DNA of 64,000 nt from a virus. Each line of letters opens with the position of its first letter. Within the stretch, counting starts at the first letter, position 1. Shown piece by piece: positions 2,306 through 62,791 of the stretch. The notes beneath the pieces are model-generated. The model was not told where the DNA came from, searched no databases, and saw only the letters and a list, made by a program, of their open reading frames with translations. The translations under genes and the position numbers were made by a program. The stretch covers positions 32,001 through 96,000 of IMG/VR virus record IMGVR_UViG_3300027887_000007; one strand, written 5' to 3'.

Positions 2306-2319
2306 TTTTGCCCCCCTTT

Positions 2320-44717: not shown

Positions 44718-44893
44718 TTGAGTTTCCTCGTGGCGATGATGTACCGCCGCCTGACACTTCCCAACCACCATTCATAGATGGCGGCGAGAACCTTGCTCCT
44801 AGGACCAACGTAGTCGATCTGAAAGATCGCAGCCCGTTGTTCCACGGCACGGGACGTGAAATCCTCAGGACCCAAGTGATACGCGAACTTCAT
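44690..44893 (-). CDS. Hypothetical protein (67 aa)
   Basis: ATGA-coupled to the upstream gene. Confidence 0.45.
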   Translation of the reverse strand: MKFAYHLGPEDFTSRAVEQRAAIFQIDYVGPRSKVLAAIYEWWLGSVRRRYIIATRKLKCFYHSARS

Positions 44894-46884: not shown

Positions 46885-48154
46885 GCTTGGCAGGCTCCCG
46901 TTCCATCTTCTTTTCGTAGTCTAACAGACACCCGCGCCGCGGCTTGTTCTCCTTCAGCCAAGTGCGGAAGGCGACCTCTAGGATCCTAAATTCCGCCCGC
47001 GACAACCAGAGAGTATCTACCGTCAGCCCTCCGGTCCCATCCTTGCCAACCTGATAGTACTGATCGAAGTCGCGTGACATCCAAGTGATCCCATACTTCT
47101 CCGGGTTGTCCCACACGGGGGTCCCGGGGTAGGGGACGAAATTGGAGACGAAGTACTGGTCCGGATCGGCGTCGACGATGAACTTCCTCGTCTCCTCGAG
47201 CGTATCGGCGGTCTCGCCCGGGAATCCGATGACGAAGAAGGCCCGGGAGACGATCCCGTATTTCTTCGCCCATTCGATGACGTTGTAGTTGTCCTTGATC
47301 TTCGCTCCCTTGATCATCCGGTCAAGGATGTAGGGCGACCCGGATTCGATGCCCCATGCAACCTGTCGGCATCCGGCGTCGGCCAGCCGGCGGTAGACTT
47401 CTTCCGTATCCGGCCCGGCCTTCCCAAGGCAGCGGAACGTGATACCAAGCGGCCCGATCAAGTCCAATATCGGAAAAAGTCGCTTCTTGTTCAGGGTGAA
47501 GATGTCGTCTTGGAAGTTGAACGCCCGGATCCCGTACTCGTCGATAACCCGCTTGATCATGTCGCGGACTTGCTCGGGCGTGGCGATTTTCTTGTTTCCG
47601 TCCAGCTTGTGCATCATGTCGAGCCCGCAGAATGCACAGTGGTAGGGACATCCGCGGGCTGTGAGCAGAGGGACCGACTTCTCCCCGTCGACAACCCGGT
47701 GGTAGGAGAAGACGTCCACGAGGTCGAACGCGGGGTAGATACCAGCGTCAACCTTCCCGTCCGACTTGATGATCCTGTGAAACTGCTTCCCGGTCGCAAG
47801 CTCAGCCATTGGGGTTTCGCCGGCCCCGATCACTACATGATCGGCAAACAGGTATCCCTCCGGCATGGCCGATGGATTAGCTCCCCCGACAACGATCTTG
47901 GCCTTGGGTGAAACCCTGCGGATCTCCCGACACAAAGGCTCGACAAAGTTCATCGAGGTGCAATAGCTGGTGATCCCGTAGAGGTCGGCCTTCCCGATCG
48001 TAAAGCTGGTCAAACCAGACATGTCGTTCACACGCACATCGACATCCGGAACTGCCTTGCGAAGATGCGCGGCAATCATGAGAAGACCCAGAGGCGGGTC
48101 CAGCCTGTCATCTGTGGAGTTTGGGTGCGGCGGATGGATCAGCTCAACCTTCAT
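46814..48154 (-). CDS. Cobalamin-binding radical SAM protein
   Basis: PPLGLLMIAA and IVVGGANPS (B12-binding), TARGCPYHCAFC (CxxxCxxC), FQDDIF, GIESGS, IGFPGET, PYPGT. Confidence 0.92.
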   Translation of the reverse strand: MKVELIHPPHPNSTDDRLDPPLGLLMIAAHLRKAVPDVDVRVNDMSGLTSFTIGKADLYGITSYCTSMNFVEPLCREIRRVSPKAKIVVGGANPSAMPEGYLFADHVVIGAGETPMAELATGKQFHRIIKSDGKVDAGIYPAFDLVDVFSYHRVVDGEKSVPLLTARGCPYHCAFCGLDMMHKLDGNKKIATPEQVRDMIKRVIDEYGIRAFNFQDDIFTLNKKRLFPILDLIGPLGITFRCLGKAGPDTEEVYRRLADAGCRQVAWGIESGSPYILDRMIKGAKIKDNYNVIEWAKKYGIVSRAFFVIGFPGETADTLEETRKFIVDADPDQYFVSNFVPYPGTPVWDNPEKYGITWMSRDFDQYYQVGKDGTGGLTVDTLWLSRAEFRILEVAFRTWLKENKPRRGCLLDYEKKMEREPAKHEVKHRHTDVYPISVETMSGVYC

Positions 48155-49906: not shown

Positions 49907-50375
49907 AAAATCTCCCTCCCGGTATCGCTATCCACCGACCGACATTTGCCGGCCAGATCCAATCGTTCTGCACTTGCGCCATATCCCACTTCTTCTTCTC
50001 TGCCTCAATCTCGTTCTTGATTGACTCTACACTGACGCAGTCACCAGCGGGAAGCTCCCTCACGAAGCGGCAGGATGCGGAAACGCCCCCTTGAACGTAG
50101 ATCGCCGGAAACGATCTGCAGACGAGCGGGCGCTTGTTGTAGACCAAGCAGGCTCCATCGCCGTAGTTCGGGCAAGGCCTAGTCACCATTTGGTACGCGG
50201 TAGTCACAACAGGAAAGCCGACACCGAAGAGAGGTTTTACGCTTTCTGGGGGAAACTGCAGTGTTTCGTCCGGGCTGAGGTAGAGTCCAAACTCCCATCC
50301 GAACCTCGGCTCGACAAGATTCTGCTCCCGGCAGCAATCCCCGCAGTTGGTACACTTGAAGTCAACGGCTACCAT
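49872..50375 (-). CDS. YkgJ family (CxxCxxCC) Fe-S/Zn-chelating protein
   Basis: FKCTNCGDCC; CPNY...CLVYNKRPLVCRSFP. Confidence 0.85.
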   Translation of the reverse strand: MVAVDFKCTNCGDCCREQNLVEPRFGWEFGLYLSPDETLQFPPESVKPLFGVGFPVVTTAYQMVTRPCPNYGDGACLVYNKRPLVCRSFPAIYVQGGVSASCRFVRELPAGDCVSVESIKNEIEAEKKKWDMAQVQNDWIWPANVGRWIAIPGGRFYDRHQTVQPSA

Positions 50376-53300
50376 TCAACGCCCCGATCACTGATTCTAC
50401 AGATTCTTTCAGTGAGGCGTCCATCTGTTTTACAGCGTTGACCAAAATGAAGACCATCGGGGCGTAGTCGAAGATCAGTACGTCAGTCGGTTCTCCCTCG
50501 GCGTAGAGCTGGGCGTTCTCTATGCGCCAGATCGTCCGCGGGGCGACCGGCTCTACTTCCTGCGCGATGATGCCGACGCGGTCGATGTTGTCGTATCCCG
50601 GCTCCCAAAGCTGGTTGTACTTGAAAAATACGGGGTTGATCTTCTCTACAACCTCGATCCCGTCGGTAAACCGCTCGATCTCACGCTTCAGGCGGATATC
50701 GGACGACTTTTTGAACCCCGACAGACCACTGTAACCGGAGAACCCAGAACCAGAGTAGCCGCTGTCACCCGAGTAGCCTGACCCGGACGAGTACCCAGAG
50801 TAGCCCGAGTGACCGCAGTACCCGGACATTCCGGAGTAGCCGCTGTAGCCGCTCTGCGGTGAGGAGTAGCCGCTCCGTCCTGAGACCCCGGAAATCCCCG
50901 AGTGACCGCAGTACCCGGATTTGCCTGGGAAGCCTGAGTACCCGCTATCCGTCGAGGAGTACCCGGATGTACCAGAGAAACCGGAATAGCCTGAGTAACC
51001 TGACGTTCCAAGACCAGCGCTTCCATACCCGGAGTAGGAGCTGTAGCCAGAGTACCCCGACACGGCGCTGTAGCCCGAGATCCCCGAATACCCTGATTCC
51101 CCGCTGTAGCCGGAGTAGCCAGACGCCTGACCTCCACCACCACCGCCAGATGTGACGAACCAACTTCTGGGAGATGGCGGGAGGAGACGAGGCGGGTCTT
51201 GCTGACTGCCGAAGTACGACTGGTACAGGCGCCAGACCTCATCGGCTGACAGCGCCCGATTCCAGAACTGTAGGTCTGATGCTCGGCACTCGTTCCACTC
51301 GAATGAGCCATAGTCTCTCGGGAGCCCGACACCGTAGCTCCAAGCTCTTTCACTGGCAAACGCAGTAGCCGAGCCGTGCGTCTGGGAATCCCAAAGCTTG
51401 CCGTCCACGTAGACGTCTAGGTACCCATTGTCAGACGCGCTCCTGACCACCCAAGTAACTAGGACCCACCTGTTTGTCGGACACGGAGTACCGCCACAGA
51501 CCATCGTGTGATCTTCTGTGACATACCCAAAGAAGTAGCCTTCGGTTGAAATTCCGACCACGGCATTTGTGTAGCCACCGGCCGGACCATCAAGAACATC
51601 GAACAATGAGTTCCATTGAGTGGTCCCAAGATTCAGCACCCAGGCCGATACCGTGTACGCCCCATCCACCGCAATCGGAGTCCGTACGGTGTGAACCGGG
51701 GTATAGAAGTAGTACTGATTGGTGTAGCTGAAGGTGCCACCGAGCTGCGGCCCACGGGCGCCAACCGACCAGTAATCCGGTCCAGCCGGAGCCACGAAAA
51801 TCTCCGGACCTGCTACGTTGTGGAGATAGTTGCCAGATCCCTCGTTGAGAAGCAACCACACCCCAAGCCCTTGGTTGAGCGGGTGGTCTGGATTAGCTTT
51901 CCATCCAGCCCCGACCGGCTTGGTCGGAGGTTCTGATGGTATTGACAGCTTACGGGTGACCGCTTGACTGCCGGATGAAACGAACCACTTGCGCGGCGAC
52001 GACGGGAGAAGGCGCGGATTGTCAGGTGTCCCCCACGGGTGCCGCTGTAGGTACAGCATCTCGTCGATGGACAAGATACGGTTCCAGATGGCGGTTTGAA
52101 TGACCGGAGCGCTGTAATTGCCAACTCCGTTTGCCTTCCCACCTGCGATGTTGAACATGTCCGCGTCGTAGTCGTTGCGATAGTAGATCGGACCCAGTCC
52201 AGTCCCTATATTCGCACTACGTCCAACGGCATAGATGTTGACATCCCCAGCGGCATTCCATGTTTGAAATGCAACAAACCCCATGCGTTGCTCAAACTCA
52301 GTCATGGTGAGGTCGGGACCATCCAGAGTGTGGTTGTTAGCCCCCCCATTTGAGTAGTAATCGCATGTCAGCCCATGAAGCGAACCTGTCCAACAGACCA
52401 GGCCGTATGACGCCGATAGGCTCCCGGCGCCCCTAAATCCGCCAATCGCCACGTTCTGCTCGACAGATCCATAAAACACAAACTCCGTCATGCTCGTTCC
52501 TTCTGGAACGTCCGAGAGCTGTCGCATCGACGTAGTATGTGGCCCGAAGCCCGTCGATTGTACGGCGTGGATCCCGCATCCTCTCCGCGTCTGGGCCCAC
52601 CTAACATTCATCCCGGTGTCAGGAGCATTAGGAATGCCGTAAAACAAAGTCATCCCAGTGCAATACTCCTTCAGTGACGCCCCGACTCCCTCCAAGAGCG
52701 GGTACCACAACGTCATTCCATCGTGAACTGGGTGTTCCCTGTTTACCTGAAATTCGCTTCCAACCGGCTTTGTGAGCGTTTCATCGGGGATGATGAATGC
52801 CCTAGTAAGCCCGGAGTCTCCTCCTCCTGCCGAGTATCCGGACGACCCACTCAGTCCAGATCCACCCGAGTACCCAGATGGCGCCGTGTCGCCCGAATAC
52901 CCAGAAATGCCGGAGTACCCCGAGAACCCGCTGTCTCCGAACCCACGGTACCCGGAGAATCCAGAAGGCGCAGCGCCCGAGTAACCAGAAGACCCGTACC
53001 CCGAGTACCCGGATGCTCCAGAGCATCCCTCCATACCGAACTGGAACACCCAGTTCTGCTCTGGACCTTCCTGAGCGGGGGCGAACCAAACCTCCGGCTG
53101 CGCTGGGACAAAACGAGGATTTTCTGGGGTGCCAAACGGGTGAGAGTAGAGCTCTAGCCACTCCTCCGAGCTCAGTTCCCTGTCCCAGATTTGAATCCAG
53201 TAGATGTTAGCGCCAACCGTTCTGGTTAGCTGGGCTGCTGAGGCGTCGTTGCCAGCGATGACAAACCTACCCGTGCCACCTGTGTCGTAGTCTATCGTCC

Positions 53301-53952
53301 CGGCTGTCTCTGCGGTGGACTTGACGTTCCTGCCGTTAACCCAGAGACGAACAGACCCGCCATCACCCCATGAACCGCCGACTTGCGTTGGAACCGTAAG
53401 ATCGCCACAGTCGTAGGCGTCAGTTTCGTAGATACCAGCACAGTTGACGGCGAAGCTGACGTAGTTCTGCCCAGCGTACGCTGGATTCACGTTTAGGCAG
53501 TACGACGTGTATGGGAACGCGCCATTGTTGTAGGTCTTATCGAGGATCTTTCCAAGCCAGATGTCGCTCGTGGTCCTGCGGAAGTAAGTGGCGACCGAGA
53601 TGCCTTTAGTTGGCTCGCACCAGTTTCCACGCTCGATCCATGTCGCCTGATCCTCGACGGTCGTTCCGGGGTATGCCCGACCCCCACCACGCTCACCAGT
53701 CCAGCGCGGTACAGCCCTAGCCCCCGCACCTCCGATTGTATTGAGCGGGAGCCTGTTGATGAGGCCAATGCCCTCCCCCGCTCCTTCCGTGAAAAGGAAG
53801 ACCTCTCTCAGGCCACGATTTAGCGGGTGATCCCAGTTGACACCAACAGCAGAGTGCGGCTTGAAGGTATAGGCCTGAGGAGCCCGCATCCTGACCGGAA
53901 CCACCGCGGTGAGAGGCCAGTAGAACGGCAGCAGGTTTGGCCCGAATCCCAT
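50362..53952 (-). CDS. Fibre protein: three LamG-like domains, Gly-Tyr-Ser repeats, C-terminal peptidase S74 intramolecular chaperone
   Basis: Three units framed by KP..VN..HP...G and W.R.LS..E...LY..P.G.P..PR; two SGYSG tracts; SSDIRLKREI..GIIAQEV..LVNAVKQ. Confidence 0.85.
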   Translation of the reverse strand: MGFGPNLLPFYWPLTAVVPVRMRAPQAYTFKPHSAVGVNWDHPLNRGLREVFLFTEGAGEGIGLINRLPLNTIGGAGARAVPRWTGERGGGRAYPGTTVEDQATWIERGNWCEPTKGISVATYFRRTTSDIWLGKILDKTYNNGAFPYTSYCLNVNPAYAGQNYVSFAVNCAGIYETDAYDCGDLTVPTQVGGSWGDGGSVRLWVNGRNVKSTAETAGTIDYDTGGTGRFVIAGNDASAAQLTRTVGANIYWIQIWDRELSSEEWLELYSHPFGTPENPRFVPAQPEVWFAPAQEGPEQNWVFQFGMEGCSGASGYSGYGSSGYSGAAPSGFSGYRGFGDSGFSGYSGISGYSGDTAPSGYSGGSGLSGSSGYSAGGGDSGLTRAFIIPDETLTKPVGSEFQVNREHPVHDGMTLWYPLLEGVGASLKEYCTGMTLFYGIPNAPDTGMNVRWAQTRRGCGIHAVQSTGFGPHTTSMRQLSDVPEGTSMTEFVFYGSVEQNVAIGGFRGAGSLSASYGLVCWTGSLHGLTCDYYSNGGANNHTLDGPDLTMTEFEQRMGFVAFQTWNAAGDVNIYAVGRSANIGTGLGPIYYRNDYDADMFNIAGGKANGVGNYSAPVIQTAIWNRILSIDEMLYLQRHPWGTPDNPRLLPSSPRKWFVSSGSQAVTRKLSIPSEPPTKPVGAGWKANPDHPLNQGLGVWLLLNEGSGNYLHNVAGPEIFVAPAGPDYWSVGARGPQLGGTFSYTNQYYFYTPVHTVRTPIAVDGAYTVSAWVLNLGTTQWNSLFDVLDGPAGGYTNAVVGISTEGYFFGYVTEDHTMVCGGTPCPTNRWVLVTWVVRSASDNGYLDVYVDGKLWDSQTHGSATAFASERAWSYGVGLPRDYGSFEWNECRASDLQFWNRALSADEVWRLYQSYFGSQQDPPRLLPPSPRSWFVTSGGGGGGQASGYSGYSGESGYSGISGYSAVSGYSGYSSYSGYGSAGLGTSGYSGYSGFSGTSGYSSTDSGYSGFPGKSGYCGHSGISGVSGRSGYSSPQSGYSGYSGMSGYCGHSGYSGYSSGSGYSGDSGYSGSGFSGYSGLSGFKKSSDIRLKREIERFTDGIEVVEKINPVFFKYNQLWEPGYDNIDRVGIIAQEVEPVAPRTIWRIENAQLYAEGEPTDVLIFDYAPMVFILVNAVKQMDASLKESVESVIGALNGSR

Positions 53953-54743
53953 CAGACGAACCTCGGAACTGTCGGAGTTCCATAGGGGAAGAGGCTGAAT
54001 TGCCTGACTTCATCGTCGGTCAGGCACCTGTTCCAGAGGCAGAAGTACTCGAAGATTCCGTCCCAGACACTATTATTGGTCTGAGTGCCGATCGCCAATG
54101 TTCCGGCTGGGTAGGCTATCGGGTAAGCAGTGGTGTTGACCGTGTTTATGAATACCCCGTCTTTGTAGAACGACGCAAATCCAGTCGTCGTTATGTTCCG
54201 CCACGTACCACCGAGCGTCACCCACGGGTTGCCACCACCGGGAATGCTGATGAGAGAGACGGAGCTCAGGTACCACCCGTGGATACCATAGTCTGTGCCA
54301 CAGTAGGCAAAGCCCAGCTTCCCAGTATCGCCAGGGACAGTGGTTCCCCTGATACCCCATTCATAGAATCCTAAACCTATTATAGTATCCGGAGACCCGA
54401 TCAGCATCCTCGATCCACTTCCGCTGTGGGTATCCAGTTTAACCTTTGCGATTATGGTGTGGTTTTGCACCCGGAGTGGAGAGTTTGCGTTTGCACTGGA
54501 CGGGAGTGCGATGTAATCTCCAGCGCTGCCCGCCTTCAGCTCTAGGAAGTAACCCCACCACGCAGTCCCACCAGGCAGAACGCCTTCTATCCCATACGGC
54601 GCAGAGTGGAGGGTGGATCCCCCACCCTCATTCATCGCCCAGAACGCAACTATGCCATTCGACAGAGGATCTGCCGGATTGAGGGATGGACTGCGGTAGG
54701 TAGGCTTCCGCAGTCCGCCATGAGATTGCAAAGCCCAAGGCAT
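53952..54743 (-). CDS. Single LamG-like (concanavalin A) domain protein
   Basis: DPLSNGIVAFWAMNEGGG, FYKDGV, WDG.FE....WNRCLTDDEV. Confidence 0.8.
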   Translation of the reverse strand: MPWALQSHGGLRKPTYRSPSLNPADPLSNGIVAFWAMNEGGGSTLHSAPYGIEGVLPGGTAWWGYFLELKAGSAGDYIALPSSANANSPLRVQNHTIIAKVKLDTHSGSGSRMLIGSPDTIIGLGFYEWGIRGTTVPGDTGKLGFAYCGTDYGIHGWYLSSVSLISIPGGGNPWVTLGGTWRNITTTGFASFYKDGVFINTVNTTAYPIAYPAGTLAIGTQTNNSVWDGIFEYFCLWNRCLTDDEVRQFSLFPYGTPTVPRFV

Positions 54744-54755
54744 TGCCCACCCCCG

Positions 54756-55199
54756 CTAGGCGGCAGGCGCGTATGTCTTCGGCCTCGCCTTGAGTACCCA
54801 TCCAGCGGATAGGTTCTGATTGGTCCCGTTCTCGATGCTGAACTTGCACGTTTGCGAGATCGGCACGTTCGGCAGTGGGTAGGACGCAGATGCGCTCTGA
54901 CCGCTCGGGATCACGAATGCCCCGACGAACAGGTACTTGTAGGTTGTTGCCGGGGCCGGCGCGTCCTCCGTCCCTCCGACGATGTCGAAATCTTGGCGAT
55001 AGAGATTGACCGTGTAGTTGGCTCCCACGGCGGCGCCGAAGTCGCATGTCAGGACCAGATCAGCCAACGGGTAGTCCGAGGCGTTTGCCACCGCAAGCGA
55101 GGTGTCGTCGGCCGCGACGAATGCGTTTGACGCGGCCGATGCCCCGTTGGCCTCGAGAGTAACAGCTGAAGCGTATGTGTACTTTACCTCGTTTGCCAT
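54756..55199 (-). CDS. Small jelly-roll structural protein (147 aa)
   Basis: True start MANEVKY after GGGGAG; FVGAFVI, CKFSIENGTNQNL; precedes the LamG genes. Confidence 0.6.
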   Translation of the reverse strand: MANEVKYTYASAVTLEANGASAASNAFVAADDTSLAVANASDYPLADLVLTCDFGAAVGANYTVNLYRQDFDIVGGTEDAPAPATTYKYLFVGAFVIPSGQSASASYPLPNVPISQTCKFSIENGTNQNLSAGWVLKARPKTYAPAA

Positions 55200-55207
55200 T
55201 TCTCCCC

Positions 55208-55504
55208 CTAGACAGCGAACGTGTTGACCGCGTTGGTGACGGCAGTGATGATCTGTCCGTCGGTACAACCAGTCGGATTGGCGAGTACGTTCGCATCGGC
55301 GATGACGGCCCACATGATCTTGTCCGTTGCGGATTCCGTATTGATCAGAGCATCCTTCGCCCATGTGAGCCGGGCAGCGTGATTTGCGGTCCCCGGATCC
55401 TCCGCGAGGATGTCGATCGAACACTTCGCTACCGCCGCGATCGTCCGACTCCGAAGCGTCTGGTTGGTGACTTTCGTGTTGTAGGCCTCAAGCAGCGTTG
55501 CCAT
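55208..55504 (-). CDS. Small helical hypothetical protein
   Basis: LRSRTIAAVAK...EDPGTANHAARLTWAK...TDGQI..AV; GAGGAG RBS. Confidence 0.65.
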   Translation of the reverse strand: MATLLEAYNTKVTNQTLRSRTIAAVAKCSIDILAEDPGTANHAARLTWAKDALINTESATDKIMWAVIADANVLANPTGCTDGQIITAVTNAVNTFAV

Positions 55505-56171
55505 TTTGTTTCTCCTCTAGCGCCTCATCTCTGAGGGCGTCTTTGTAAGTGTAGTCGTATGACCCGACGTGGATCATGAGCTTAGACAGATCGTGATCCA
55601 CGTAGAGCTTGAAACCGGAGTCCATGGCTCGTTGAGAAAAGTAGTAGTCCTGATAGACGTACCGCCGATTCTGCTCGCTGTACCCCATGAGGAACCACGG
55701 GTGAGCCATCTTCTCGTACACCTCCCGGGCCACCAGCGTTAACCCCTGCGGGAGCAACTTGACCTCCTCAAGCCCGGTTGACGTCTCCTTCGTGATAATC
55801 CTTTTGTCCTTCCCGGCCGCGGTGAACCTCTGACGCTTTCCTTTGTTGGTCGAGTAGTTCGCCCCAACGATCGGAAGCCGATGCCGGGCGAGACGGTGTA
55901 TGGCGTCTGGAGGGAACCCCATGTCATCCTCGACGCTGCAAAAGTGCGTCCACCTCACCTGCTTGTCCTCCAAGTACTTTTCGACCAGGCGCTCGTAGTT
56001 CTCCGCAATCCCGCTTCCTTCTGTCCCGTCGGGGACGAAGTACTGGGTGTCGCAATCCTCAAACACCCTAACGTGCGAGAAGTACATCGCCATTCTGGCG
56101 AGGCACATCGCATACTTCAGCCGGCACAGACCAGTCGACGGCGTCAAAACGGCAACGGCGAAATCTCCCAT
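55488..56171 (-). CDS. GT-A fold glycosyltransferase-like protein (paralog of 37686-38327)
   Basis: THFCSVEDDMGFPPD, PIVGANY, GLTLVAREVY, HPWF, QDYYFS...GFKLYVDHDLS...HVG. Confidence 0.75.
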   Translation of the reverse strand: MGDFAVAVLTPSTGLCRLKYAMCLARMAMYFSHVRVFEDCDTQYFVPDGTEGSGIAENYERLVEKYLEDKQVRWTHFCSVEDDMGFPPDAIHRLARHRLPIVGANYSTNKGKRQRFTAAGKDKRIITKETSTGLEEVKLLPQGLTLVAREVYEKMAHPWFLMGYSEQNRRYVYQDYYFSQRAMDSGFKLYVDHDLSKLMIHVGSYDYTYKDALRDEALEEKQNGNAA

Positions 56172-56179
56172 ATTCCACC

Positions 56180-57202
56180 TCAAAGCTGAGCGATCGAAGC
56201 GAGGAACCGTTCTTTGTCTCCCGTAGACTCGAACTCCTCGGATAGACGCTTCAGCTCGAGTATCTTACCGTTCAACTCCTTGATAGCGTTAGTGAGAAGA
56301 AAGACCAGTGGCGCTACGTCGAACAGGATGATCTCGGTCTCCTCGCCCTCTTCGATAAGCTTGCCGGTGACCTTCCGGATGGTGTACGGAGCTAGAGCCT
56401 CGATCTCCTGACCGACGATCCCAACTTGGAGTACGTCGTCGTTCTTGGTCTCCCACAGGCCGTTCCACTTGAACGTGATCGGGTTGATCTTCCTCAGAAC
56501 CTCTAGGCCGTCCTTGAATGCGCGGATGTCGCGCTTGAGTCGAATATCGGACGATGCCCCCGAGTATCCCGATCGGCCCGAATAGCCAGAAACTCCTGAA
56601 AATCCGCTTCGGCCCGAATAGCCAGAATAGCCTGAAGTCCCGCAGTACCCCGAAACTCCCGAATAGCCCGAGTAGCCTGAGCTGGAGTATCCCGAGATGC
56701 CAGAGTATCCCGAGTAGCCTGAGCTGGAGTAACCCGACACCCCGCTGTACCCAGAAAAGCCTGACGTCCCGCAATAGCCGCTGACGCCTGAGAATCCGCT
56801 GTAGCCCGAGCTGGAGTAGCCACTTGTCCCCGAGAAACCAGATCCGCCACTACCGCCCGAGTACCCACTTTCGCCCGAGAAGCCGCTGACCCCGCTAAAC
56901 CCCGAAACCGCCGAGTACCCCGAGATCCCCGAATAACCCGAAGTTCCAGAAAATCCAGAAGTGGCCGCACCTGAGATCCCAGAGTACCCCGAGTATCCTG
57001 ACGGACCAGAGTAGCCACTGTCGGTCGAACCCGGTCCGCTATAGCCTGATGGGCCACTGTAGCCGGAATCGCCCCCGCCGCCAGAGTAGCCCGAAATCCC
57101 TGAGTAGCCAGATGTCGACGAGTAGCCCGAATAGCCTGAAACCCCGGAGTACCCGGAGATCCCAGAATAACCACTCATCGACGCAATCTTGTCCCAGCCC
57201 AT
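56180..57202 (-). CDS. Gly-Tyr-Ser repeat fibre protein with C-terminal peptidase S74 chaperone
   Basis: About 200 aa of G-X-S triplets, then SSDIRLKRDI..GIVGQEIE..LTNAIKEL. Confidence 0.85.
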   Translation of the reverse strand: MGWDKIASMSGYSGISGYSGVSGYSGYSSTSGYSGISGYSGGGGDSGYSGPSGYSGPGSTDSGYSGPSGYSGYSGISGAATSGFSGTSGYSGISGYSAVSGFSGVSGFSGESGYSGGSGGSGFSGTSGYSSSGYSGFSGVSGYCGTSGFSGYSGVSGYSSSGYSGYSGISGYSSSGYSGYSGVSGYCGTSGYSGYSGRSGFSGVSGYSGRSGYSGASSDIRLKRDIRAFKDGLEVLRKINPITFKWNGLWETKNDDVLQVGIVGQEIEALAPYTIRKVTGKLIEEGEETEIILFDVAPLVFLLTNAIKELNGKILELKRLSEEFESTGDKERFLASIAQL

Positions 57203-57203
57203 A

Positions 57204-57680
57204 TCAACTCAGAAGGTAGACGTCACAGGTGTCAGTGTCTAGGTACAGGTCTCCAGCGACGGCGCCTGGGATCGACCCCGGAGCTCCAGATCCGGTGAAC
57301 CACTGCGTTCCCCGAGCGCCCGAGTAGGCGCTGATCCCAGAGTACCCACTGTAGCCCGAGGTCCCCGGACTGGAGTAACCAGAAATCCCACTGTAGCCCG
57401 AGGGCGAGGAGTAGCCTGAGATTCCCGAATAGCCCGACGTCCCAGAGTATCCCGACGATGACGAGTACCCAGAAATCCCTGAGAATCCAGACAGGCTAGA
57501 GTATCCCGAAATCCCCGAATACCCAGAAGGCGACGAATAGCCACTAATTCCCGAGTAGCCCGAACTGGACGAGTATCCGCTGATCCCCGAATAGCCCGAT
57601 ACGCCGGAGTAGCCGGAGTAACCCGATCGGCCCGAGTAGCCTGAGTATCCGCTGATGTTGCTCTGCTTTGTCCAGCTCAT
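57204..57680 (-). CDS. Gly-Tyr-Ser repeat fibre extender with C-terminal knob
   Basis: MSWTKQSNISG, G-X-S triplets, GTQWFTGSGAP..GDLYLDTDTCDVY. Confidence 0.8.
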   Translation of the reverse strand: MSWTKQSNISGYSGYSGRSGYSGYSGVSGYSGISGYSSSSGYSGISGYSSPSGYSGISGYSSLSGFSGISGYSSSSGYSGTSGYSGISGYSSPSGYSGISGYSSPGTSGYSGYSGISAYSGARGTQWFTGSGAPGSIPGAVAGDLYLDTDTCDVYLLS

Positions 57681-60352
57681 GCGTACTGGCCTCCGGTCGC
57701 TGACGTTCCAGACGAGTCTCCTGGGAAGTAGTTAGCGCCGCCGCCGTTTGTGTTGATCACGCCGTTCAGGGTTACTTGGTACCGGGAACCGGTTGCTGAC
57801 CCGCTGTAGGTTGATGATGTGTCCTGAACCACTCCGGCCAAAGATGCGTATGCAAAGGCCGTAAACGCTGGAGTCCCAGTAATCGTCACTGTGTGGGCGG
57901 AAGTCTTGTTCACCCTGCCCTGGCTTGTTGCTACATGGGAGGTCGCACCGCCGCTGATTGCGTAGCTTCCTACGCAAGAGATTATCCCGTTGAATCCAGC
58001 ATCGAGGTGGTAGACGGAGCAAGCGCCGAAATCGATGTTCTGGAACTTTATTGATGCAGCTTGAGCCCTTAAACCACCAAGCCCACCAGAGTTCGTGATC
58101 TTGAGATCCTTGATGAACACAGGATTTACGGTTGGGCAACCAACAACCGCTATGTTGTACGCAGCCGTTGTGTTGATCACGACGTTTGCTGGCGTTGAGG
58201 CGTTCCCCTGAACCGTTAGAGTGGCAGTTCCAAGCCCATGAAGCAGGCCGATCTGCATCCCAGCCGTGTAGGTTCCATCTCCGATTTGTACTGTGACGTT
58301 ATACCCGGCGATGTCCAGCTGCATGATCGAGTCAGCAGCCTTCTGCAGAGTGAGGAACGCACCACCGGCCGAGTCTGTCAGCCCATCGTTGCTGTCGTTC
58401 CCATCGGCGCGGACGTAGTAGGTCCGGTCTGCCGTTAGCCTAGTCCTGACGTTCAGCGGGTTGCTCGCCCCGGCCCCCTGCTGGTAAACGTCTCCAGTGT
58501 TGAGATCGAGGTAGAGGTCCCCTGTGGCCTCGCCACTAATCGTGCCTGGCGCTCCATCCCCCGTGTACCAGAATGACCCCCGGACTCCGGATCCTCCCGA
58601 GTAGGCGCTGATCCCAGAATATCCAGATGGGCCGCTGTAGCCAGATGGGCCCGAGTAGCCTGAAAATCCCGAAACTCCCGAATACCCCGAAATCCCCGAG
58701 TAGCCCGATCGCCCGGAATACCCCGAGTAGCCTGAGTCGGAACTGTAGCCGGAAATGCCCGAGTAGCCAGATCGTCCCGAATAGCCCGAGTAGCCCGAAT
58801 CTGAGCTGTAGCCAGATCTTCCCGAGTAGCCAGAATATCCCGAGTCAGAACTGTAGCCGGAGATTCCCGAGTACCCCGACCGGCCAGAATAGCCCGAGTA
58901 GCCGCTGTCGGAAGAGTACCCAGAAATCCCGCTGTAGCCGGAAATTCCCGAGTAAGCCGAAATCCCTGAGTAGCCTGATCGCCCAGAATAGCCCGAGTAG
59001 CCTGAATCTGAACTGTAGCCCGAAATCCCTGAGTAGCCCGACGTGCCAGAATATCCGGAGGGCGACGAATAGCCGGAGATCCCAGAGTACCCAGAATCAG
59101 ACGAGTAGCCTGAGATGCCGCTGAACCCGGAAATCCCAGAAAATCCTGAGTAGCCCGACCGGCCCGAATACCCACTGTAGCCCGAGGCTCCTTTGGCTCC
59201 CTGCATGGCGAACACAAGCATGTCCGCCTTGTTTAGGCCCGGAGTGGCCGCTCCGGACGCCCTGCGGAATCTCAGCTTGACCGTGTAGGTCCCTGCCGGG
59301 AGCTCGGCAGTCCTGTGGGTGATCGCCCCGATTCCGTAGTCGTTCGTTCCGGAGAGGTACCGCTGGTACTCGTCGTAGTCTACCCCGTCGATCTGTATTG
59401 CGATCCCGATGGTAGATGGAGCGCCGCCGCTCTGCGTCCCGATCTCGAAACTTGCCAGCGCGGCAATCTCGACCGCCTCTTCGGTCGTGATTGTCGTCGA
59501 CATCCCGCTGACGTCCTCTAGCGTAGCGGACGTAGTGCCAACGGGACTGTCCAGCTCGACGTAAGAACTCGGGAGTTTTCCAGCAACGGCATCCGCGCCG
59601 GGAAGCCCTGAGTAGCCCGAGATCCCAGAGTAGGCGCTAATGCCTGAAAACCCCGAAACGGACGAGTAACCCGAGAGTCCCGAGTAACCCGAGTATCCAC
59701 TGTCTCCCGGCCCCGAAAACCCTGAGTACCCAGACTGCCCAGCTCCCGAGTATCCAGAGTACCCTGAAAACCCGGATCCGCCCCCGGGGTCTCCCTTTTC
59801 TCCGGAGTAACCAGAGTATCCCGACGTTCCGGGGCTGGAGTACCCAGAGAATCCAGACTCCCCGCCGGCCGGGCCGGAAAAGCCACTGTAACCGGATGTG
59901 CCGGGGCTGGAGAAACCAGAAGTTCCGCTGTATCCGGAGTAACCCGATGTGCCGGGGCTTGAGTAGCCAGAGAATCCCGAGACCGAGATTCCCGAGTACC
60001 CTGAGATGCCCGAGTCTCCGCTATAGCCAGAAGTGCCGGGGCTTGAGTACCCAGAAGGGCCGCTGTAACCCGATGGGCCTGAGTATCCGGAGGTCGATTC
60101 TCCCGAGTACCCGGATGGGCCGGAGTAGCCAGAGGTCGAGACCCCCGAGTATCCGGAGTAACCAGAAATGCCGTAACCGGAGTACCCGGAGGTCCCGAAA
60201 GTGTACGGAAGGGCGTTCCAGTTCTGAATGCCGTCGCCGAGCTTGATCTTGCCAGTGTCAAGCTCAACACCAACTTCGCCTTCAGCCAGAAGTGGATTCG
60301 CTGCGGTCCACTCTGCTGCGAGGCCGCGGCGAAGCTGGATGTGGACAGCCAT
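57677..60352 (-). CDS. Fibre protein: Mtd_N/hyaluronidase-N domain, Gly-Tyr-Ser repeats, C1q/BclA-like module, knob, C-terminal beta-helix
   Basis: IQLRRG.AAEWTAANPLLAEGEVGVELDTGKIKLGDG...WNALPY; two GYS tracts; TYYVRADGNDSNDGL....AFLTLQKA..GTY. Confidence 0.85.
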   Translation of the reverse strand: MAVHIQLRRGLAAEWTAANPLLAEGEVGVELDTGKIKLGDGIQNWNALPYTFGTSGYSGYGISGYSGYSGVSTSGYSGPSGYSGESTSGYSGPSGYSGPSGYSSPGTSGYSGDSGISGYSGISVSGFSGYSSPGTSGYSGYSGTSGFSSPGTSGYSGFSGPAGGESGFSGYSSPGTSGYSGYSGEKGDPGGGSGFSGYSGYSGAGQSGYSGFSGPGDSGYSGYSGLSGYSSVSGFSGISAYSGISGYSGLPGADAVAGKLPSSYVELDSPVGTTSATLEDVSGMSTTITTEEAVEIAALASFEIGTQSGGAPSTIGIAIQIDGVDYDEYQRYLSGTNDYGIGAITHRTAELPAGTYTVKLRFRRASGAATPGLNKADMLVFAMQGAKGASGYSGYSGRSGYSGFSGISGFSGISGYSSDSGYSGISGYSSPSGYSGTSGYSGISGYSSDSGYSGYSGRSGYSGISAYSGISGYSGISGYSSDSGYSGYSGRSGYSGISGYSSDSGYSGYSGRSGYSSDSGYSGYSGRSGYSGISGYSSDSGYSGYSGRSGYSGISGYSGVSGFSGYSGPSGYSGPSGYSGISAYSGGSGVRGSFWYTGDGAPGTISGEATGDLYLDLNTGDVYQQGAGASNPLNVRTRLTADRTYYVRADGNDSNDGLTDSAGGAFLTLQKAADSIMQLDIAGYNVTVQIGDGTYTAGMQIGLLHGLGTATLTVQGNASTPANVVINTTAAYNIAVVGCPTVNPVFIKDLKITNSGGLGGLRAQAASIKFQNIDFGACSVYHLDAGFNGIISCVGSYAISGGATSHVATSQGRVNKTSAHTVTITGTPAFTAFAYASLAGVVQDTSSTYSGSATGSRYQVTLNGVINTNGGGANYFPGDSSGTSATGGQYA

Positions 60353-60901: not shown

Positions 60902-62791
60902 CTATTGGATTTGACCTGTTTGCGTTGCAGATGGGCCAGTGGCATTGCTGATTTTCTCCATGGCACCCGGCAACATTCCTCCACCGCCGGCAGCTCCCGC
61001 CTGCTTCTGCCGGATGGCTTGGATGAGGATGTTGGCACCCTCTTCCTCGAGGTTTTTCTTGATCGAGTCGTACAGGCCTCCCAGATCGAGAGACTCCAGC
61101 ATGTTCTTCATATCCATGTCGCCCATTCGCCGCAGGTTGAGCATGAGCGCTTGCTGCGGCATTCGGGCCGACTTGAGCAGGGATCCGGGGACCATCATGA
61201 ACGTAAACGCCTTCCAATGCTCCTCGGCAGGCGTCCCGTACGGGACCATCGTCCCGGGGTCCCAGTCGAAGTCCTCCCACGTCAATCCCTCGGACCCTAG
61301 AAGCTGCATCCTCCGTTTCAGCGTGTAGAACTGGAAGGCGTTGGGGACCCACTGCTGGCCCATCTGTTTCATGAAGTCTTCGATGTACCGTACCTTGAGC
61401 CTGACAAGGGTCTGTTGCCCCTCCTTCAGTTGCTCCAGAGTGTCTCCTGCCGGGACGATACCCCTGCGAGAGATGCTCCCCATGTCCAGAAAACCGCTCT
61501 GGCTGTCTAGTTCCTGCTGGGCGTACAGCATCGTCTGGAAGACGAAGCTGGGCAGGACAGGCGCCGGCCCCCACGTCGGAGCCTGAATCGAAGCCGGGGA
61601 GTAGAAAATCTTCGCATTCGGCATGTTCGGGTCGAGATTCTTCTTCACCGAAGCGCCGAAGGCGTTGTCCGGAGCAAGGAGTTGCGGGTTGACCGCCTTC
61701 TTGACCGCGTCAAGGATCCCTGCGAGGACGTTGTTCATGACATCCTGCAGCGGGATCTGGTTGCGGAACTCGGACAGTCCCGGGAACTGCCACGGGACCC
61801 GGTTCAACCGGAGGCACTGGAACGGGAACTGACCGTGGTAGTGCGGATTTGGACCGTCGTAAAGGACAACCGGGCCGCCGAGGATCATTAGCCGGCCGCG
61901 AGGATAAAGCTTCTGGCCAGGCTGGACGGCGTATCCGTACTCCCTCTGCTGATCCCCGACCCAAACTGTTGCGTTTGACGTATTTCTCTGGCTGTCCCTG
62001 ATCCAGAACTCCCGGTAGAGAGCCATCGGTATTGCGGAGTCTCGGGCTTGGCTTGTGGTTTGGCCAAACACTCGGCGCATCTGGGGGGATAGCACCTGCC
62101 AAGCCCGTCCCCACATCCCCGTGCCGGCCTGAGACGGGCCACCAAGGTACTGCGAATACTCCTTGTCGACAGGGACTTTGTAGCCTTTGAGGGGGTACTT
62201 CTCCTTGAACCATGAGATCGGCTTGGGGGCGCGGTAGATGACTCCAAGAGACCGCTGTAGCGTATGGGACGGCCTGATCGGAATCAGGTCCATCGCGCCA
62301 AGGGCTGTCAGCTCCATCTCGCCTTCGCCGTTCTTCAGGTCTGGATTCCAGATCAAACGGCCGTAACCGATCGTGAGAGCCGCGTGGACGATGATCATGG
62401 CAAGGGTCATGTCGATGTCCTCGTTCATGAACCAAGCCCGGACCATCTTGTTGAGGACCTTCGCGTGTTCGTCGTACAGCTTGTTGTTCGCTTTGATCTC
62501 GAACGAAGGCCGGATGTCCGTGAGGTAGGAAATCAGCTGAACTAGGTTAGTCCACAGCCGGTTGGCGACCGGTGCGGCCTTGTAGCTAGGCCGGCGCTCG
62601 ACCCACTGCTTCCCCATCAGGTAGTTGATGGCGCGGTCGATCTGGACTACGTCGTCGTTCCGCTCGAGGTCGTCCTTCGCCTCTTCAAAGACGGCCTCAC
62701 ACCACCGGCTGACCAAGAGATCGTGTGCAGTCTCGTCTAGCGGCCATTGGGTAGCGCTCGGGTCGTACGAGTACCAACCGGGTAAATCCAT
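60902..62791 (-). CDS. Portal protein (P22-like)
   Basis: YLMGKQW, P..NRL, ALTIGYG.L.W, YDGPNP..HGQFPF, LQDVMN, size 629 aa; downstream of terminase. Confidence 0.88.
   Translation of the reverse strand: MDLPGWYSYDPSATQWPLDETAHDLLVSRWCEAVFEEAKDDLERNDDVVQIDRAINYLMGKQWVERRPSYKAAPVANRLWTNLVQLISYLTDIRPSFEIKANNKLYDEHAKVLNKMVRAWFMNEDIDMTLAMIIVHAALTIGYGRLIWNPDLKNGEGEMELTALGAMDLIPIRPSHTLQRSLGVIYRAPKPISWFKEKYPLKGYKVPVDKEYSQYLGGPSQAGTGMWGRAWQVLSPQMRRVFGQTTSQARDSAIPMALYREFWIRDSQRNTSNATVWVGDQQREYGYAVQPGQKLYPRGRLMILGGPVVLYDGPNPHYHGQFPFQCLRLNRVPWQFPGLSEFRNQIPLQDVMNNVLAGILDAVKKAVNPQLLAPDNAFGASVKKNLDPNMPNAKIFYSPASIQAPTWGPAPVLPSFVFQTMLYAQQELDSQSGFLDMGSISRRGIVPAGDTLEQLKEGQQTLVRLKVRYIEDFMKQMGQQWVPNAFQFYTLKRRMQLLGSEGLTWEDFDWDPGTMVPYGTPAEEHWKAFTFMMVPGSLLKSARMPQQALMLNLRRMGDMDMKNMLESLDLGGLYDSIKKNLEEEGANILIQAIRQKQAGAAGGGGMLPGAMEKISNATGPSATQTGQIQ

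What the first reader, a model, noticed from the sequence alone, without database searches (positions are those of the whole stretch)
57170..58590. Fibre knob motif split across gene boundaries: daisy-chained subunits or +1 frameshift
Seen: the 891-aa and 158-aa proteins carry G..W.TG.GAP....GDLYLD..T.DVY without the W-x-x-x-x-N-I-x-G strand that, from memory, follows it in collagen-like phage fibres. The next genes begin with exactly that strand (MSWTKQSNISG; MGWDKIASMSG). The 158/340 junction reads GTC TAC CTT CTG AGT TGA T ATG GGC TGG. Inference: each subunit plugs its N-terminal strand into the previous knob (891 to 158 to 340), giving a branched, extendable fibre in which the 158-aa unit, having both plug and socket, could polymerise. 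A +1 shift at AGT-TGA fusing the two is an alternative.
Basis: inference. Interest (0 to 1): 0.72.

Follow-up and report, generated by a model that had tools for sequence, protein, structure and literature searches.

The report
Plug-and-socket joints in phage collagen fibre
In this uncultured 110-kb phage, a small knob domain that normally sits between collagen-like fibre segments is cut just before its last strand at a gene boundary, and the next gene starts with that strand. The separately made fibre proteins therefore most likely click together end to end, a joint that recurs in many phages and that I did not find described in the literature.

Summary
The 158-aa protein ends 3 residues after ...GDLYLDTDTCDVY, and the 340-aa protein starts MGWDKIASMSG after TGA-T-ATG. 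The 158-aa protein starts MSWTKQSNISG, overlapping the 891-aa stop (ATGA). One correction: the motif in the 891-aa protein is internal, about 265 residues before its stop.

The motif is a ~45-aa inter-collagen module with no Pfam or PDB sequence match. In 513 instances from 150 metagenomic proteins, about 70% carry the W-strand in cis.

In viral contigs, 36 of 45 distinct truncated "sockets" are followed (gap -1 to +84 nt, all three frames, often with a Shine-Dalgarno site) by a gene starting M-[A/P/G]-W-x4-[N/S]-[I/L]-x-G. Nocardia phage NBR1 gp16/17/18 and Corynebacterium phage EmiRose gp24/25/26 show the same initiator/extender/cap layout. A frameshift or a pseudogene is therefore very unlikely.

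AlphaFold2 models, though indirect, are consistent with the strand belonging to the fold.

- **158 to 340 joint:** well supported by comparison.
- **891 to 158 branch joint:** uncertain.
- **Polymerisation of the 158-aa unit:** untested.

Binding has not been shown. The scan has noted the same split module in other genomes.

The parts
57677..60352 (-). 891-aa fibre protein. Layout: Mtd_N-type N-terminal anchor domain (aa 5-41), Gly-Tyr-Ser collagen-like segments, a middle non-collagen region, more collagen, a knob module without a recognisable W-strand, then a C-terminal right-handed beta-helix-like receptor-binding cassette. Candidate initiator of the chain.
   Evidence: Pfam Mtd_N 52.4 bits and Collagen 102 bits. 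The N-terminus matches phage hyaluronidase structures 6x3m and 2c3f. The C-terminal cassette is shared at 29-45% identity with 18 viral contigs behind unrelated shafts.
58469..58585 (-). Knob module inside the 891-aa protein (aa ~590-628). It matches the module profile only up to ...GDVYQQGAG and is followed by ASNPLNV and then the cassette start RTRLTADRTYYV. It is either an open socket or a module closed by a degenerate strand in cis.
   Evidence: Profile match at positions 6-48 of 61, 41.8-47.0 bits. Appending the N-terminus of the 158-aa protein raises the score to 55.6 bits.
57690..57694 (-). GGAGG Shine-Dalgarno sequence 9 nt upstream of the ATG of the 158-aa gene, which overlaps the stop of the 891-aa gene as ATGA.
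   Evidence: Read from the sequence.
57204..57680 (-). 158-aa extender: an N-terminal plug, about 108 residues of Gly-Tyr-Ser collagen-like repeat, and a C-terminal socket.
   Evidence: Same layout as NBR1 gp17, EmiRose gp25 and the 63-211-aa extenders in viral contigs.
57648..57680 (-). Plug of the 158-aa protein: MSWTKQSNISG.
   Evidence: Aligns to profile positions 49-61, the W-strand of uninterrupted modules.
57207..57323 (-). Socket of the 158-aa protein (aa 120-158). The module is truncated 3 residues after the conserved Tyr (…DVYLLS, then TGA).
   Evidence: Profile match at positions 9-43, 48.9 bits. Forty-five distinct truncated modules in viral contigs stop at the same point.
57200..57209 (-). 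158/340 junction: AGT TGA T ATG. One base lies between the stop and the start, which fits translational coupling and is not a slippery site.
56180..57202 (-). 340-aa cap: plug MGWDKIASMSG (nt 57170-57202), about 205 residues of collagen-like repeat, and a C-terminal Peptidase_S74 intramolecular chaperone domain (from aa 218, SDIRLK).
   Evidence: Pfam Collagen 68.3 bits and Peptidase_S74 40.3 bits against a cut-off of 22. The plug completes the module of the 158-aa protein in the profile alignment.

Best explanation
The three consecutive genes encode segments of one trimeric, collagen-like virion fibre. The segments are joined without covalent bonds by a split domain.

**The uninterrupted module.** A ~45-residue knob (W..G.G.P / GD.YLD / TGDVY / W....NI.G) sits between two collagen triple helices.

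**The split form here.** The chain is nicked in the loop before the last strand.
- The 158-aa protein ends as a 'socket': the knob minus its last strand.
- The 340-aa protein begins as a 'plug': the missing strand, running straight into its own collagen helix.
- Three plugs of one trimer complete the three sockets of the previous trimer. This rebuilds the geometry of the uninterrupted module, so the triple helix continues along the same axis.

**Roles of the three proteins.**
- The 158-aa protein has both plug and socket, so it is an extender.
- The 340-aa protein is a cap. Its C-terminal S74 chaperone domain probably nucleates trimerisation and then cleaves itself off.
- The 891-aa protein has the Mtd_N anchor and the only other strand-less knob in the genome. 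It is the likely initiator, which would make the joint a side branch next to its own beta-helix receptor-binding domain.

**Shown:** the sequence layout, its conservation, and its equivalence to the uninterrupted module.

**Inferred:** physical docking, the order 891-158-340, the stoichiometry, and the role of the S74 domain.
For: 1. The junction sequences are as described.
2. The module is abundant: 736 representative proteins at E<=1e-3. It normally carries the W-strand in cis, in about 70% of 513 instances.
3. A profile of 349 uninterrupted modules aligns gaplessly across 158|340. The score rises from 48.9 to 57.1 bits with X at the break and to 61.7 bits joined directly.
4. Of 45 distinct truncated modules in IMG/VR contigs, 36 are followed by a plug-starting gene. 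The loop length summed across the nick is 5-7 residues, the same range as in uninterrupted modules.
5. The portal-related contigs L009 and L020 carry mini-chains of 58+69+63 aa, with a Gp10_C-like tip on the third gene.
6. Cultured phages NBR1 (gp16/17/18) and EmiRose (gp24/25/26) each have two sockets and two plugs in the complete genome. This genome also has exactly two of each.
7. AlphaFold2 of a natural uninterrupted module gives pLDDT 87.5 with the W-strand region ordered.
8. AlphaFold2 of a natural 75-aa extender gives a confident beta-strand for the plug (residues 3-8, pLDDT ~81) and a confident socket (74-87), while the linker is below 50. The socket is the only available partner for that strand.
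9. The best, though weak, structural matches of both models are the collagen XVIII and XV trimerisation domains. The socket covers their first two thirds.
Against: - No binding, multimer model or virion data exist. I could not inspect model coordinates, so plug-socket pairing is deduced only from secondary structure and confidence.
- Structural matches are below the level the tool calls meaningful (Z<5).
- For the 891-aa protein, the knob is internal and its tail (VYQQGAG...) looks like that of uninterrupted modules. The following ASNPLNVRT has the right length to be a degenerate strand in cis. A coaxial 158-aa trimer might also clash with the beta-helix domain of the 891-aa protein. No other locus in my sample shows a socket followed by a large domain and then a plug gene.
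- Nine of 45 sockets have no recognisable plug gene directly downstream.
Confidence: 0.68

Rival explanations
1. Programmed +1 frameshift (or stop read-through) at AGT-TGA-T fuses the 158-aa and 340-aa products into one chain with an uninterrupted knob.
For: A +1 shift would give ...DVYLLS-D-MGWDK..., with W six residues after Tyr, the commonest loop length in uninterrupted modules. One-base spacers recur: in L009 twice, and in L041, L052 and L054.
Against: - Homologous junctions have gaps of -1, 1, 2, 3, 4, 6-10, 12, 13, 15, 16, 18 and 84 nt, in all three frames, with TAA, TAG or TGA stops. Many have GGAG or AGGAG before their own ATG.
- Every plug gene keeps its own start codon and a small second residue.
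- AGU cannot re-pair on GUU, and no stimulatory Shine-Dalgarno sequence sits just upstream.
- In L021-L025 the extender's socket is followed by a GC-rich hairpin, not a plug gene.
Confidence: 0.04
2. A recent mutation or assembly error broke a single gene, so the 158/340 pair is a pseudogene or an artefact.
For: A single nucleotide change could create the stop.
Against: The same cut occurs at the same loop in at least 45 distinct sequences, including two finished isolate genomes. All have intact downstream ATG starts, conserved socket ends (Y-x-[L/M]-[S/A/T]) and conserved plug starts.
Confidence: 0.02
3. The genes are truly separate, but the two ends do not dock. The truncated knob is a self-sufficient C-terminal cap, and M-A-W....I.G is only a common leader for a collagen helix, so the proteins are independent fibres or attach elsewhere on the virion.
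For: - Docking has not been shown.
- Nine of 45 sockets lack a downstream plug gene.
- Initiators show that a fibre can start without a plug.
- The knob of the 891-aa protein continues into another domain without a W-strand.
Against: - The cut falls exactly between two parts of one conserved module.
- The two halves co-occur next to each other far above chance: 80% against a background below 1% per start.
- Sockets and plugs are equal in number in three complete genomes.
- The AlphaFold2 model orders the plug as a strand although only the socket can pair with it.
Confidence: 0.14
4. A variant of the main reading. The knob of the 891-aa protein is closed in cis and is not a socket. The 158-aa units instead polymerise head to tail (plug into the socket of another 158-aa trimer), are capped by the 340-aa protein, and are anchored by something else.
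For: - The tail of the 891-aa module resembles uninterrupted modules (alignment).
- The plugs of the 158-aa and 340-aa proteins are similar, and both sockets in the window are of the same flavour, so nothing obvious prevents self-association.
- F-ENA spore fibres use exactly such an anchor, polymerising unit and cap (PMC12357932).
Against: - No alternative initiator exists in the 110-kb genome.
- The gene for the 158-aa protein is translationally coupled to that of the 891-aa protein (ATGA overlap).
- In profile terms, the plug of the 158-aa protein completes the module of the 891-aa protein better than that protein's own continuation does (55.6 against 47.0 bits).
Confidence: 0.12

Closest known systems
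The uninterrupted inter-collagen knob module of phage and prophage collagen-like fibre and minor tail proteins (unnamed, no Pfam model)
   Same: Same conserved sequence (W..G.G.P....GD.YLD..TGDVY), same position between Gly-X-Y repeats, and the same loop length once the two halves are summed.
   Different: Here the chain is nicked before the last strand, and the two parts lie in different genes.
F-ENA endospore appendages of Bacillus: F-Anchor, F-ENA and F-BclA (PMC12357932, read)
   Same: Both are trimeric and axially stacked, with an anchor, an extender and a cap. Collagen-like proteins sit at both ends. Subunits interlock when an N-terminal hook peptide inserts into the preceding unit.
   Different: F-ENA uses a DUF4183 head-neck domain, for which no Pfam match was found here. 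F-ENA is a bacterial spore fibre whose extender is known to polymerise. Here the joint is a split collagen-linker module in a phage, and polymerisation is unknown.
Donor-strand complementation in chaperone-usher pili (my own knowledge)
   Same: A subunit that lacks its last beta-strand is completed by the N-terminal strand of the next subunit, giving a non-covalent fibre.
   Different: Pilins are monomeric Ig-like domains that need a chaperone and an usher. Here the proposed joint is three-fold, between trimers, cytoplasmic, and derived from a domain that also exists unbroken.
Multi-protein phage fibres joined end to end, such as the T4 long tail fibre gp34-gp35-gp36-gp37 (PMC5537660 abstract)
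   Same: One fibre is built from consecutive gene products in gene order.
   Different: The T4 joints are not known to be halves of a domain that occurs uninterrupted elsewhere. No sequence relation was found.
Collagen XV/XVIII (multiplexin) trimerisation domains, PDB 3n3f and 9bnb
   Same: They are the best structural matches of both AlphaFold2 models. Each is a small (~55 aa) beta-rich trimerisation unit directly next to a collagen helix. The socket aligns to their first ~37 residues.
   Different: Z is only 2.2-4.9 with 9-15% identity. That is too weak to claim a shared fold or common ancestry.
Pf2 (Phage_fiber_2, PF03406), the globular repeat between two collagen domains in E. coli prophage EPclB (PMC3368898)
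   Same: It is a globular knob separating two collagen segments of a phage fibre protein.
   Different: There was no match to PF03406 even at E<=10, so it is a different module. It has not been reported as split.

Membership tests
Inter-collagen knob module (unnamed) | Conserved core W..G.G.P...(G)GD.Y[LI][DN]..[TS]G.[VI]Y | tested here: met
   The 158-aa protein scores 48.9 bits and the 891-aa protein 41.8 bits against a profile of 349 modules. A phmmer search found 736 representative proteins at E<=1e-3.
Inter-collagen knob module (unnamed) | Flanked by Gly-X-Y collagen-like repeats | tested here: met
   Pfam Collagen matches in the 891-, 158- and 340-aa proteins.
Inter-collagen knob module (unnamed) | Closing W-x(3-7)-[ILVM]-x-G strand in the same chain, 5-7 residues after the Tyr | tested here: not met
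   It is absent in cis from the 158-aa protein, where a stop follows 3 residues later, and is not recognisable in the 891-aa protein. It is present at the N-termini of the 158- and 340-aa proteins.
Mtd_N (PF18454), for the 891-aa protein | Match above Pfam's gathering score at the N-terminus | tested here: met
   52.4 bits against a cut-off of 26.3 at aa 5-41. It also matches the N-termini of phage hyaluronidase structures 6x3m and 2c3f.
Peptidase_S74 intramolecular chaperone (PF13884), for the 340-aa protein | Match above the gathering score, plus the Ser...Lys motif at the cleavage site | tested here: met
   40.3 bits against a cut-off of 22 at aa 218-272. The sequence reads S-D-I-R-L-K. Self-cleavage itself was not tested.
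Programmed +1 frameshift site (prfB type) | A P-site codon that can re-pair in the +1 frame, an upstream Shine-Dalgarno-like stimulator, and a frame offset conserved among homologues | tested here: not met
   AGU to GUU cannot re-pair, and there is no stimulator. Offsets among 36 homologous junctions cover all three frames.
F-ENA / DUF4183 fibres | DUF4183 head-neck domain | tested here: not met
   No such Pfam match in any of the fibre proteins. The resemblance lies in assembly logic only.
Phage_fiber_2 (PF03406) | Pfam match in the knob region | tested here: not met
   No family matched at E<=10 for the junction read-through or for the socket alone.
Multiplexin collagen trimerisation domain fold | Structural superposition over the whole domain with a significant score | tested here: inconclusive
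   Z 4.9 and 4.6 over 53 and 50 residues for the uninterrupted module, and Z 2.5 and 2.2 for the socket. These are below the level the tool calls meaningful.
Donor-strand complementation (chaperone-usher pili) | An Ig-like pilin fold with a missing G strand, a periplasmic chaperone and an usher | not tested
   No pilin, chaperone or usher family appeared in the Pfam scans of the genes examined, but this was not searched for specifically. The analogy is mechanistic only.

The most novel reading that the evidence does not exclude
The plug-and-socket cut is a general, so far undescribed connector for collagen-like virion fibres, and in this phage it would do more than join pieces.

- **Templated assembly from C to N.** The S74 chaperone domain of the 340-aa cap trimerises first and presents three plugs in register. 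These template the fold of the 158-aa socket, which has no trimerisation domain of its own. The plugs of the 158-aa protein then dock onto the 891-aa protein.
- **Possible polymerisation.** Because the extender carries both ends, it could polymerise, as in F-ENA. That would give fibres of variable length and a branch beside the beta-helix receptor-binding domain of the 891-aa protein.
Probability: 0.2. Interest if true: 0.8.

Novelty: new variant of a known kind. Interest (0 to 1): 0.62.

Why it matters
If the halves dock as proposed, three things follow.

- **Modular exchange.** Phages could build and re-equip collagen-like fibres from separately encoded cassettes (anchor, spacer, tip) without needing in-frame recombination. 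That would help explain the rapid turnover of this locus. Close relatives of this phage carry entirely different or no fibre genes at the same slot, and the caps carry many unrelated tip domains.
- **Annotation.** It gives a rule for many tiny 'hypothetical' collagen-like genes of 60-200 aa.
- **Engineering.** It offers a compact, natural, trimer-to-trimer connector of about 11 plus 40 residues that could be tested for use with phage receptor-binding proteins or collagen-like materials.

The idea is directly testable by co-expressing short fragments.

Tried and rejected
- **Pfam on the knob.** A scan of the junction read-through, the socket alone and the L009 mini-chain at E<=10 found no family for the knob. 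It found only Collagen, plus Gp10_C for the L009 tip.
- **PDB by sequence.** Single-sequence and profile searches gave only spurious light-harvesting-protein and collagen-peptide matches.
- **Fold searches.** Nothing was significant. The best Foldseek hit was E 0.26, to the iridovirus protein VP88, which turned out to be a membrane anchor protein of no help here. The VIA aligner gave Z<5.
- **Relation to Mtd_N.** I suspected the knob is related to the Mtd_N / hyaluronidase N-terminal domain. Only weak structural hints appeared (Mtd 1yu0 Z 2.5; 2c3f in the Foldseek tail), and the module profile did not match the N-terminus of the 891-aa protein. This is left open and not claimed.
- **Two socket flavours.** I looked for distinct initiator and extender sockets using Pro before GD. 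The split was 13/22 against 8/22, not clean enough to claim.
- **Homologues of the 891-aa layout.** I looked for other cases of a strand-less knob, then a large domain, then a plug gene. None turned up among about 70 modules or among 18 relatives of the beta-helix cassette.
- The genomic context of the ten socket-ending metagenomic proteins could not be fetched, so viral contigs and GenBank phages were used instead.
- **Literature.** Six full-text searches found no description of the split module. This does not prove that none exists.
- **AlphaFold2 on the window's own junction.** I did not submit the read-through of the window's junction, because four-letter-word translations are mostly not accepted there. 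Natural sequences were used instead.

Full report
**What is in the window**

The window lies in a 110,207-bp single-contig phage genome. Its genes are almost all on the minus strand, and it has no close cultured relative: the best portal match is about 25% identity.

Directly downstream of the portal gene (60902-62791; SU10/P22-type portal) lie three consecutive fibre genes.

- **891-aa protein (57677-60352).** It carries an Mtd_N-type N-terminal domain (52.4 bits). That domain also matches the N-termini of solved phage hyaluronidase tail fibres (6x3m, 2c3f). It continues with long Gly-Tyr-Ser collagen-like stretches, one copy of the knob motif at aa ~590-628, and a C-terminal beta-helix-like domain.
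- **158-aa protein (57204-57680).** It reads MSWTKQSNISG, then collagen-like repeat, then ...GDLYLDTDTCDVYLLS and a stop.
- **340-aa protein (56180-57202).** It reads MGWDKIASMSG, then collagen-like repeat, then a Peptidase_S74 intramolecular chaperone domain (40.3 bits).

The junctions are ATGA (891/158, with GGAGG 9 nt upstream) and AGT TGA T ATG (158/340).

**What the motif is**

A search with the last 50 residues of the 158-aa protein against 1.84 billion representative proteins found 736 at E<=1e-3. Many carry several copies, up to 20 in one protein.

In the best 150 proteins I counted 513 instances. About 70% are followed in the same chain by W-x(3-7)-[ILVM]-x-G, with the Trp 5-7 residues after the conserved Tyr, and the chain then runs straight back into Gly-X-Y repeats. 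Ten instances instead sit at the very C-terminus, ending 2-3 residues after the Tyr. Several of those proteins begin M-A-W....I.G.

The motif is therefore a ~45-residue module between collagen segments whose last element is the W-strand. It has no Pfam model: nothing matched at E<=10, including Phage_fiber_2. It also has no relative of known structure by sequence.

**Is the split real and conserved?**

Contigs related through the portal gene carry miniature versions.

- L009 encodes 58-, 69- and 63-aa proteins in a row. The first ends ...GKVYKLTWS. The second reads MAWNEVMNIKG...GDVYVMS. The third reads MAWTWKGILKG followed by a Gp10_C-like tip.
- L020 has the same chain.

A scan of IMG/VR with the socket pattern gave 72 more loci. 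Over all loci I found 45 distinct modules truncated by a stop within 8 codons. Of these, 36 are followed by a gene that begins with the plug pattern. That pattern fits only 0.8% of all ATG-started open windows in the same DNA.

The distance from stop to start takes the values -1, 1, 2, 3, 4, 6-10, 12, 13, 15, 16, 18 and 84 nt. All three frame offsets therefore occur, often with GGAG or AGGAG in the gap. The residues between Tyr and Trp, summed across the nick, number 5 (31 cases), 6 (3) or 7 (4), within the range seen in uninterrupted modules.

Two finished genomes of cultured phages show the same layout.

- **Nocardia phage NBR1:** gp16 has its own N-terminus and ends in a socket. gp17 has a plug and a socket, ending ...GDVYLLS as here. 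gp18 starts MAWDKVAAL... and carries a globular tip.
- **Corynebacterium phage EmiRose:** gp24, gp25 and gp26 follow the same pattern.

Each of these genomes holds two sockets and two plugs. The genome of this window also holds exactly two strand-less modules and two plug starts.

Plug-bearing genes are of two kinds. Extenders (60-211 aa) end in another socket. Caps (63-465 aa) carry many unrelated C-terminal domains.

In the family L021-L025 the gene order is initiator, cap, extender, and the extender's socket is followed by a hairpin rather than a plug gene. Adjacency is therefore usual but not obligatory.

**Equivalence to the uninterrupted module**

A profile built from 349 uninterrupted modules aligns across the 158/340 boundary without a gap. 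The score rises from 48.9 bits (158-aa protein alone) to 57.1 bits with X at the break, or 61.7 bits joined directly.

AlphaFold2 on a natural uninterrupted module (55-row alignment A2) gave mean pLDDT 87.5. It showed three strands and an ordered W-strand segment forming beta-bridges.

AlphaFold2 on a natural 75-aa extender (alignment A3) gave three parts:
- a confident strand for the plug (residues 3-8, pLDDT ~81);
- a confident socket (pLDDT 74-87);
- a linker below 50.

Only the socket is available as a partner for that strand, so the model evidently folds the plug back onto the socket. I could not inspect coordinates, so this is an indirect reading.

For both models the best structural matches are the collagen XVIII and XV trimerisation domains. 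Z was 4.9 and 4.6 for the whole module and 2.5 and 2.2 for the socket, which covers their first two thirds. These scores are too low to claim a shared fold. The match is at least sensible for a small trimerising unit next to a collagen helix.

**Mechanism proposed**

A collagen-like fibre is a trimer, so a socket end offers three incomplete subdomains and the next trimer offers three N-terminal strands. Docking restores the uninterrupted geometry, and the helix continues on the same axis.

Position 2 of the plug is nearly always Ala, Pro, Gly or Ser. The initiator Met is therefore probably removed, and the nick lies in the loop after the third strand.

The tight or overlapping gene junctions fit translational coupling and equal dosage.

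The 340-aa cap ends in an S74 chaperone domain. In known fibres and spikes this domain drives trimerisation and then cleaves itself off (my own knowledge of the family). The 158-aa protein has no trimerisation element other than its half-knob. I therefore suggest, as inference, that assembly runs from the cap backwards.

At 0.286 nm per residue, the collagen parts of the 158- and 340-aa proteins would add roughly 30 nm and 60 nm of rod.

**The uncertain link to the 891-aa protein**

For a joint between the 891-aa and 158-aa proteins:
- It is the only other strand-less module in the genome.
- The genes overlap (ATGA).
- The plug of the 158-aa protein completes the module of the 891-aa protein better than its own continuation does (55.6 against 47.0 bits).

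Against it:
- The module is internal.
- Its tail (VYQQGAG) resembles uninterrupted modules rather than sockets, which end Y-x-[L/M]-[S/A/T].
- The next residues (ASNPLNVRT) have the right length for a degenerate strand in cis.
- The beta-helix cassette begins only 12 residues after the Tyr. This cassette (start R..LTA[DN]RTYYV) is found behind many unrelated shafts in other phages. The 891-aa protein thus looks like a recombinant in which a receptor-binding cassette was grafted at or near the module's break point.
- No second example of this layout turned up.

I rate the 891-158 joint at roughly even odds.

**Rivals**

- A +1 frameshift is not supported. Frame offsets among homologues are unconstrained, the plug genes have their own start signals, the site is not slippery, and sockets exist without a downstream plug gene.
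- A pseudogene or sequencing error is excluded by the conservation.
- The main remaining rival is that the two ends do not bind each other. Only an experiment or a multimer model can settle this.

**Comparison with what is known**

The closest mechanistic parallel I could read is F-ENA of Bacillus spores. It has a collagen-like anchor ending in the fibre domain, trimeric units that stack axially and interlock through N-terminal hook peptides, and a collagen-like cap that starts with the same hook (PMC12357932). The domains are unrelated: no DUF4183 match was found here.

Donor-strand complementation in pili is the classical analogue. The T4 long tail fibre is the classical multi-protein phage fibre.

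Six full-text searches found no description of this split module.

Earlier notes of this scan report the same kind of split in several other genomes: methanogen viruses, a giant virus and freshwater phages. They also include a second reading of this same stretch. Those notes are unchecked AI notes and were consulted after my own analysis. They agree with it but are not independent evidence.

**Verdict**

The finding is a real and recurrent gene architecture, and it most likely encodes a non-covalent plug-and-socket joint between collagen-like fibre segments. The 158/340 joint is well supported by comparison. The branch at the 891-aa protein and polymerisation of the extender remain open. I class it as a new variant of a known kind of assembly, namely strand complementation between fibre subunits.

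Noticed in passing
window 2320-20178 (-): A single 5952-aa ORF. It matches a Strawberry-notch/SNF2-type helicase (AAA_34 254 bits, Helicase_C_4 203 bits), LPD38, a methyltransferase, HATPase_c and a weak SLT domain. This is a 'large polyvalent protein' in a phage genome.
   Followed up: partly
window 44890-48154 (-) and 55488-56183 (-): The block between the fibre and capsid genes holds a GT2 glycosyltransferase fused to a methyltransferase (664 aa) and a B12-binding radical SAM protein (446 aa). A 231-aa phrog_1574 protein overlaps the end of the 340-aa gene. These are candidate modifiers of the Ser/Tyr-rich fibres.
   Followed up: no
window 50362-60352 compared with L005, L007, L008, L009, L020: The slot between the portal / zinc-ribbon genes and the scaffold / capsid genes is hypervariable. 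Relatives at 79-82% portal identity carry no fibre genes there (L007, L008) or one unrelated collagen-like gene (L005). L009 and L020 carry the three-gene mini-chain. This position next to the head genes leaves open whether these are tail, neck or head fibres.
   Followed up: partly
window 57680-58440 (-); loci L097-L114: The C-terminal beta-helix cassette of the 891-aa protein (start R..LTADRTYYV.DG.D.N.GL) recurs at 29-45% identity on 18 viral contigs behind unrelated N-terminal parts. In many of them it is followed by a small gene starting with a ...DWYW... motif, which is absent here.
   Followed up: partly
window 50362-53952 (-) and 53952-54743 (-): The 1196-aa protein has Laminin_G_3 (concanavalin-like) domains, two Gly-Tyr-Ser collagen stretches and its own S74 chaperone domain, but neither plug nor socket. 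A 263-aa Laminin_G_3 protein is encoded just upstream.
   Followed up: no
loci L021-L025 (about 1997-3240): The gene order is initiator, cap, extender. The extender's socket (…GDVYVLS) is followed by a GC-rich hairpin and no plug gene. Here either a socket stays open or pairing does not follow gene order.
   Followed up: no
window 56180-60352 (-): The collagen-like repeat is almost purely Gly-Tyr-Ser / Gly-[IVF]-Ser with no proline. This is unusual for a triple helix. The scan has a separate note on it (e1-5983113).
   Followed up: no
proteins P0114, P0125, P0069; L093 2039-2602: Extenders in actinophage-like sequences carry a second, different inter-collagen module (…DAGDGYLV..DG.LYIW.G..F…G..F.G). 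It was not seen split in the few cases I looked at.
   Followed up: no
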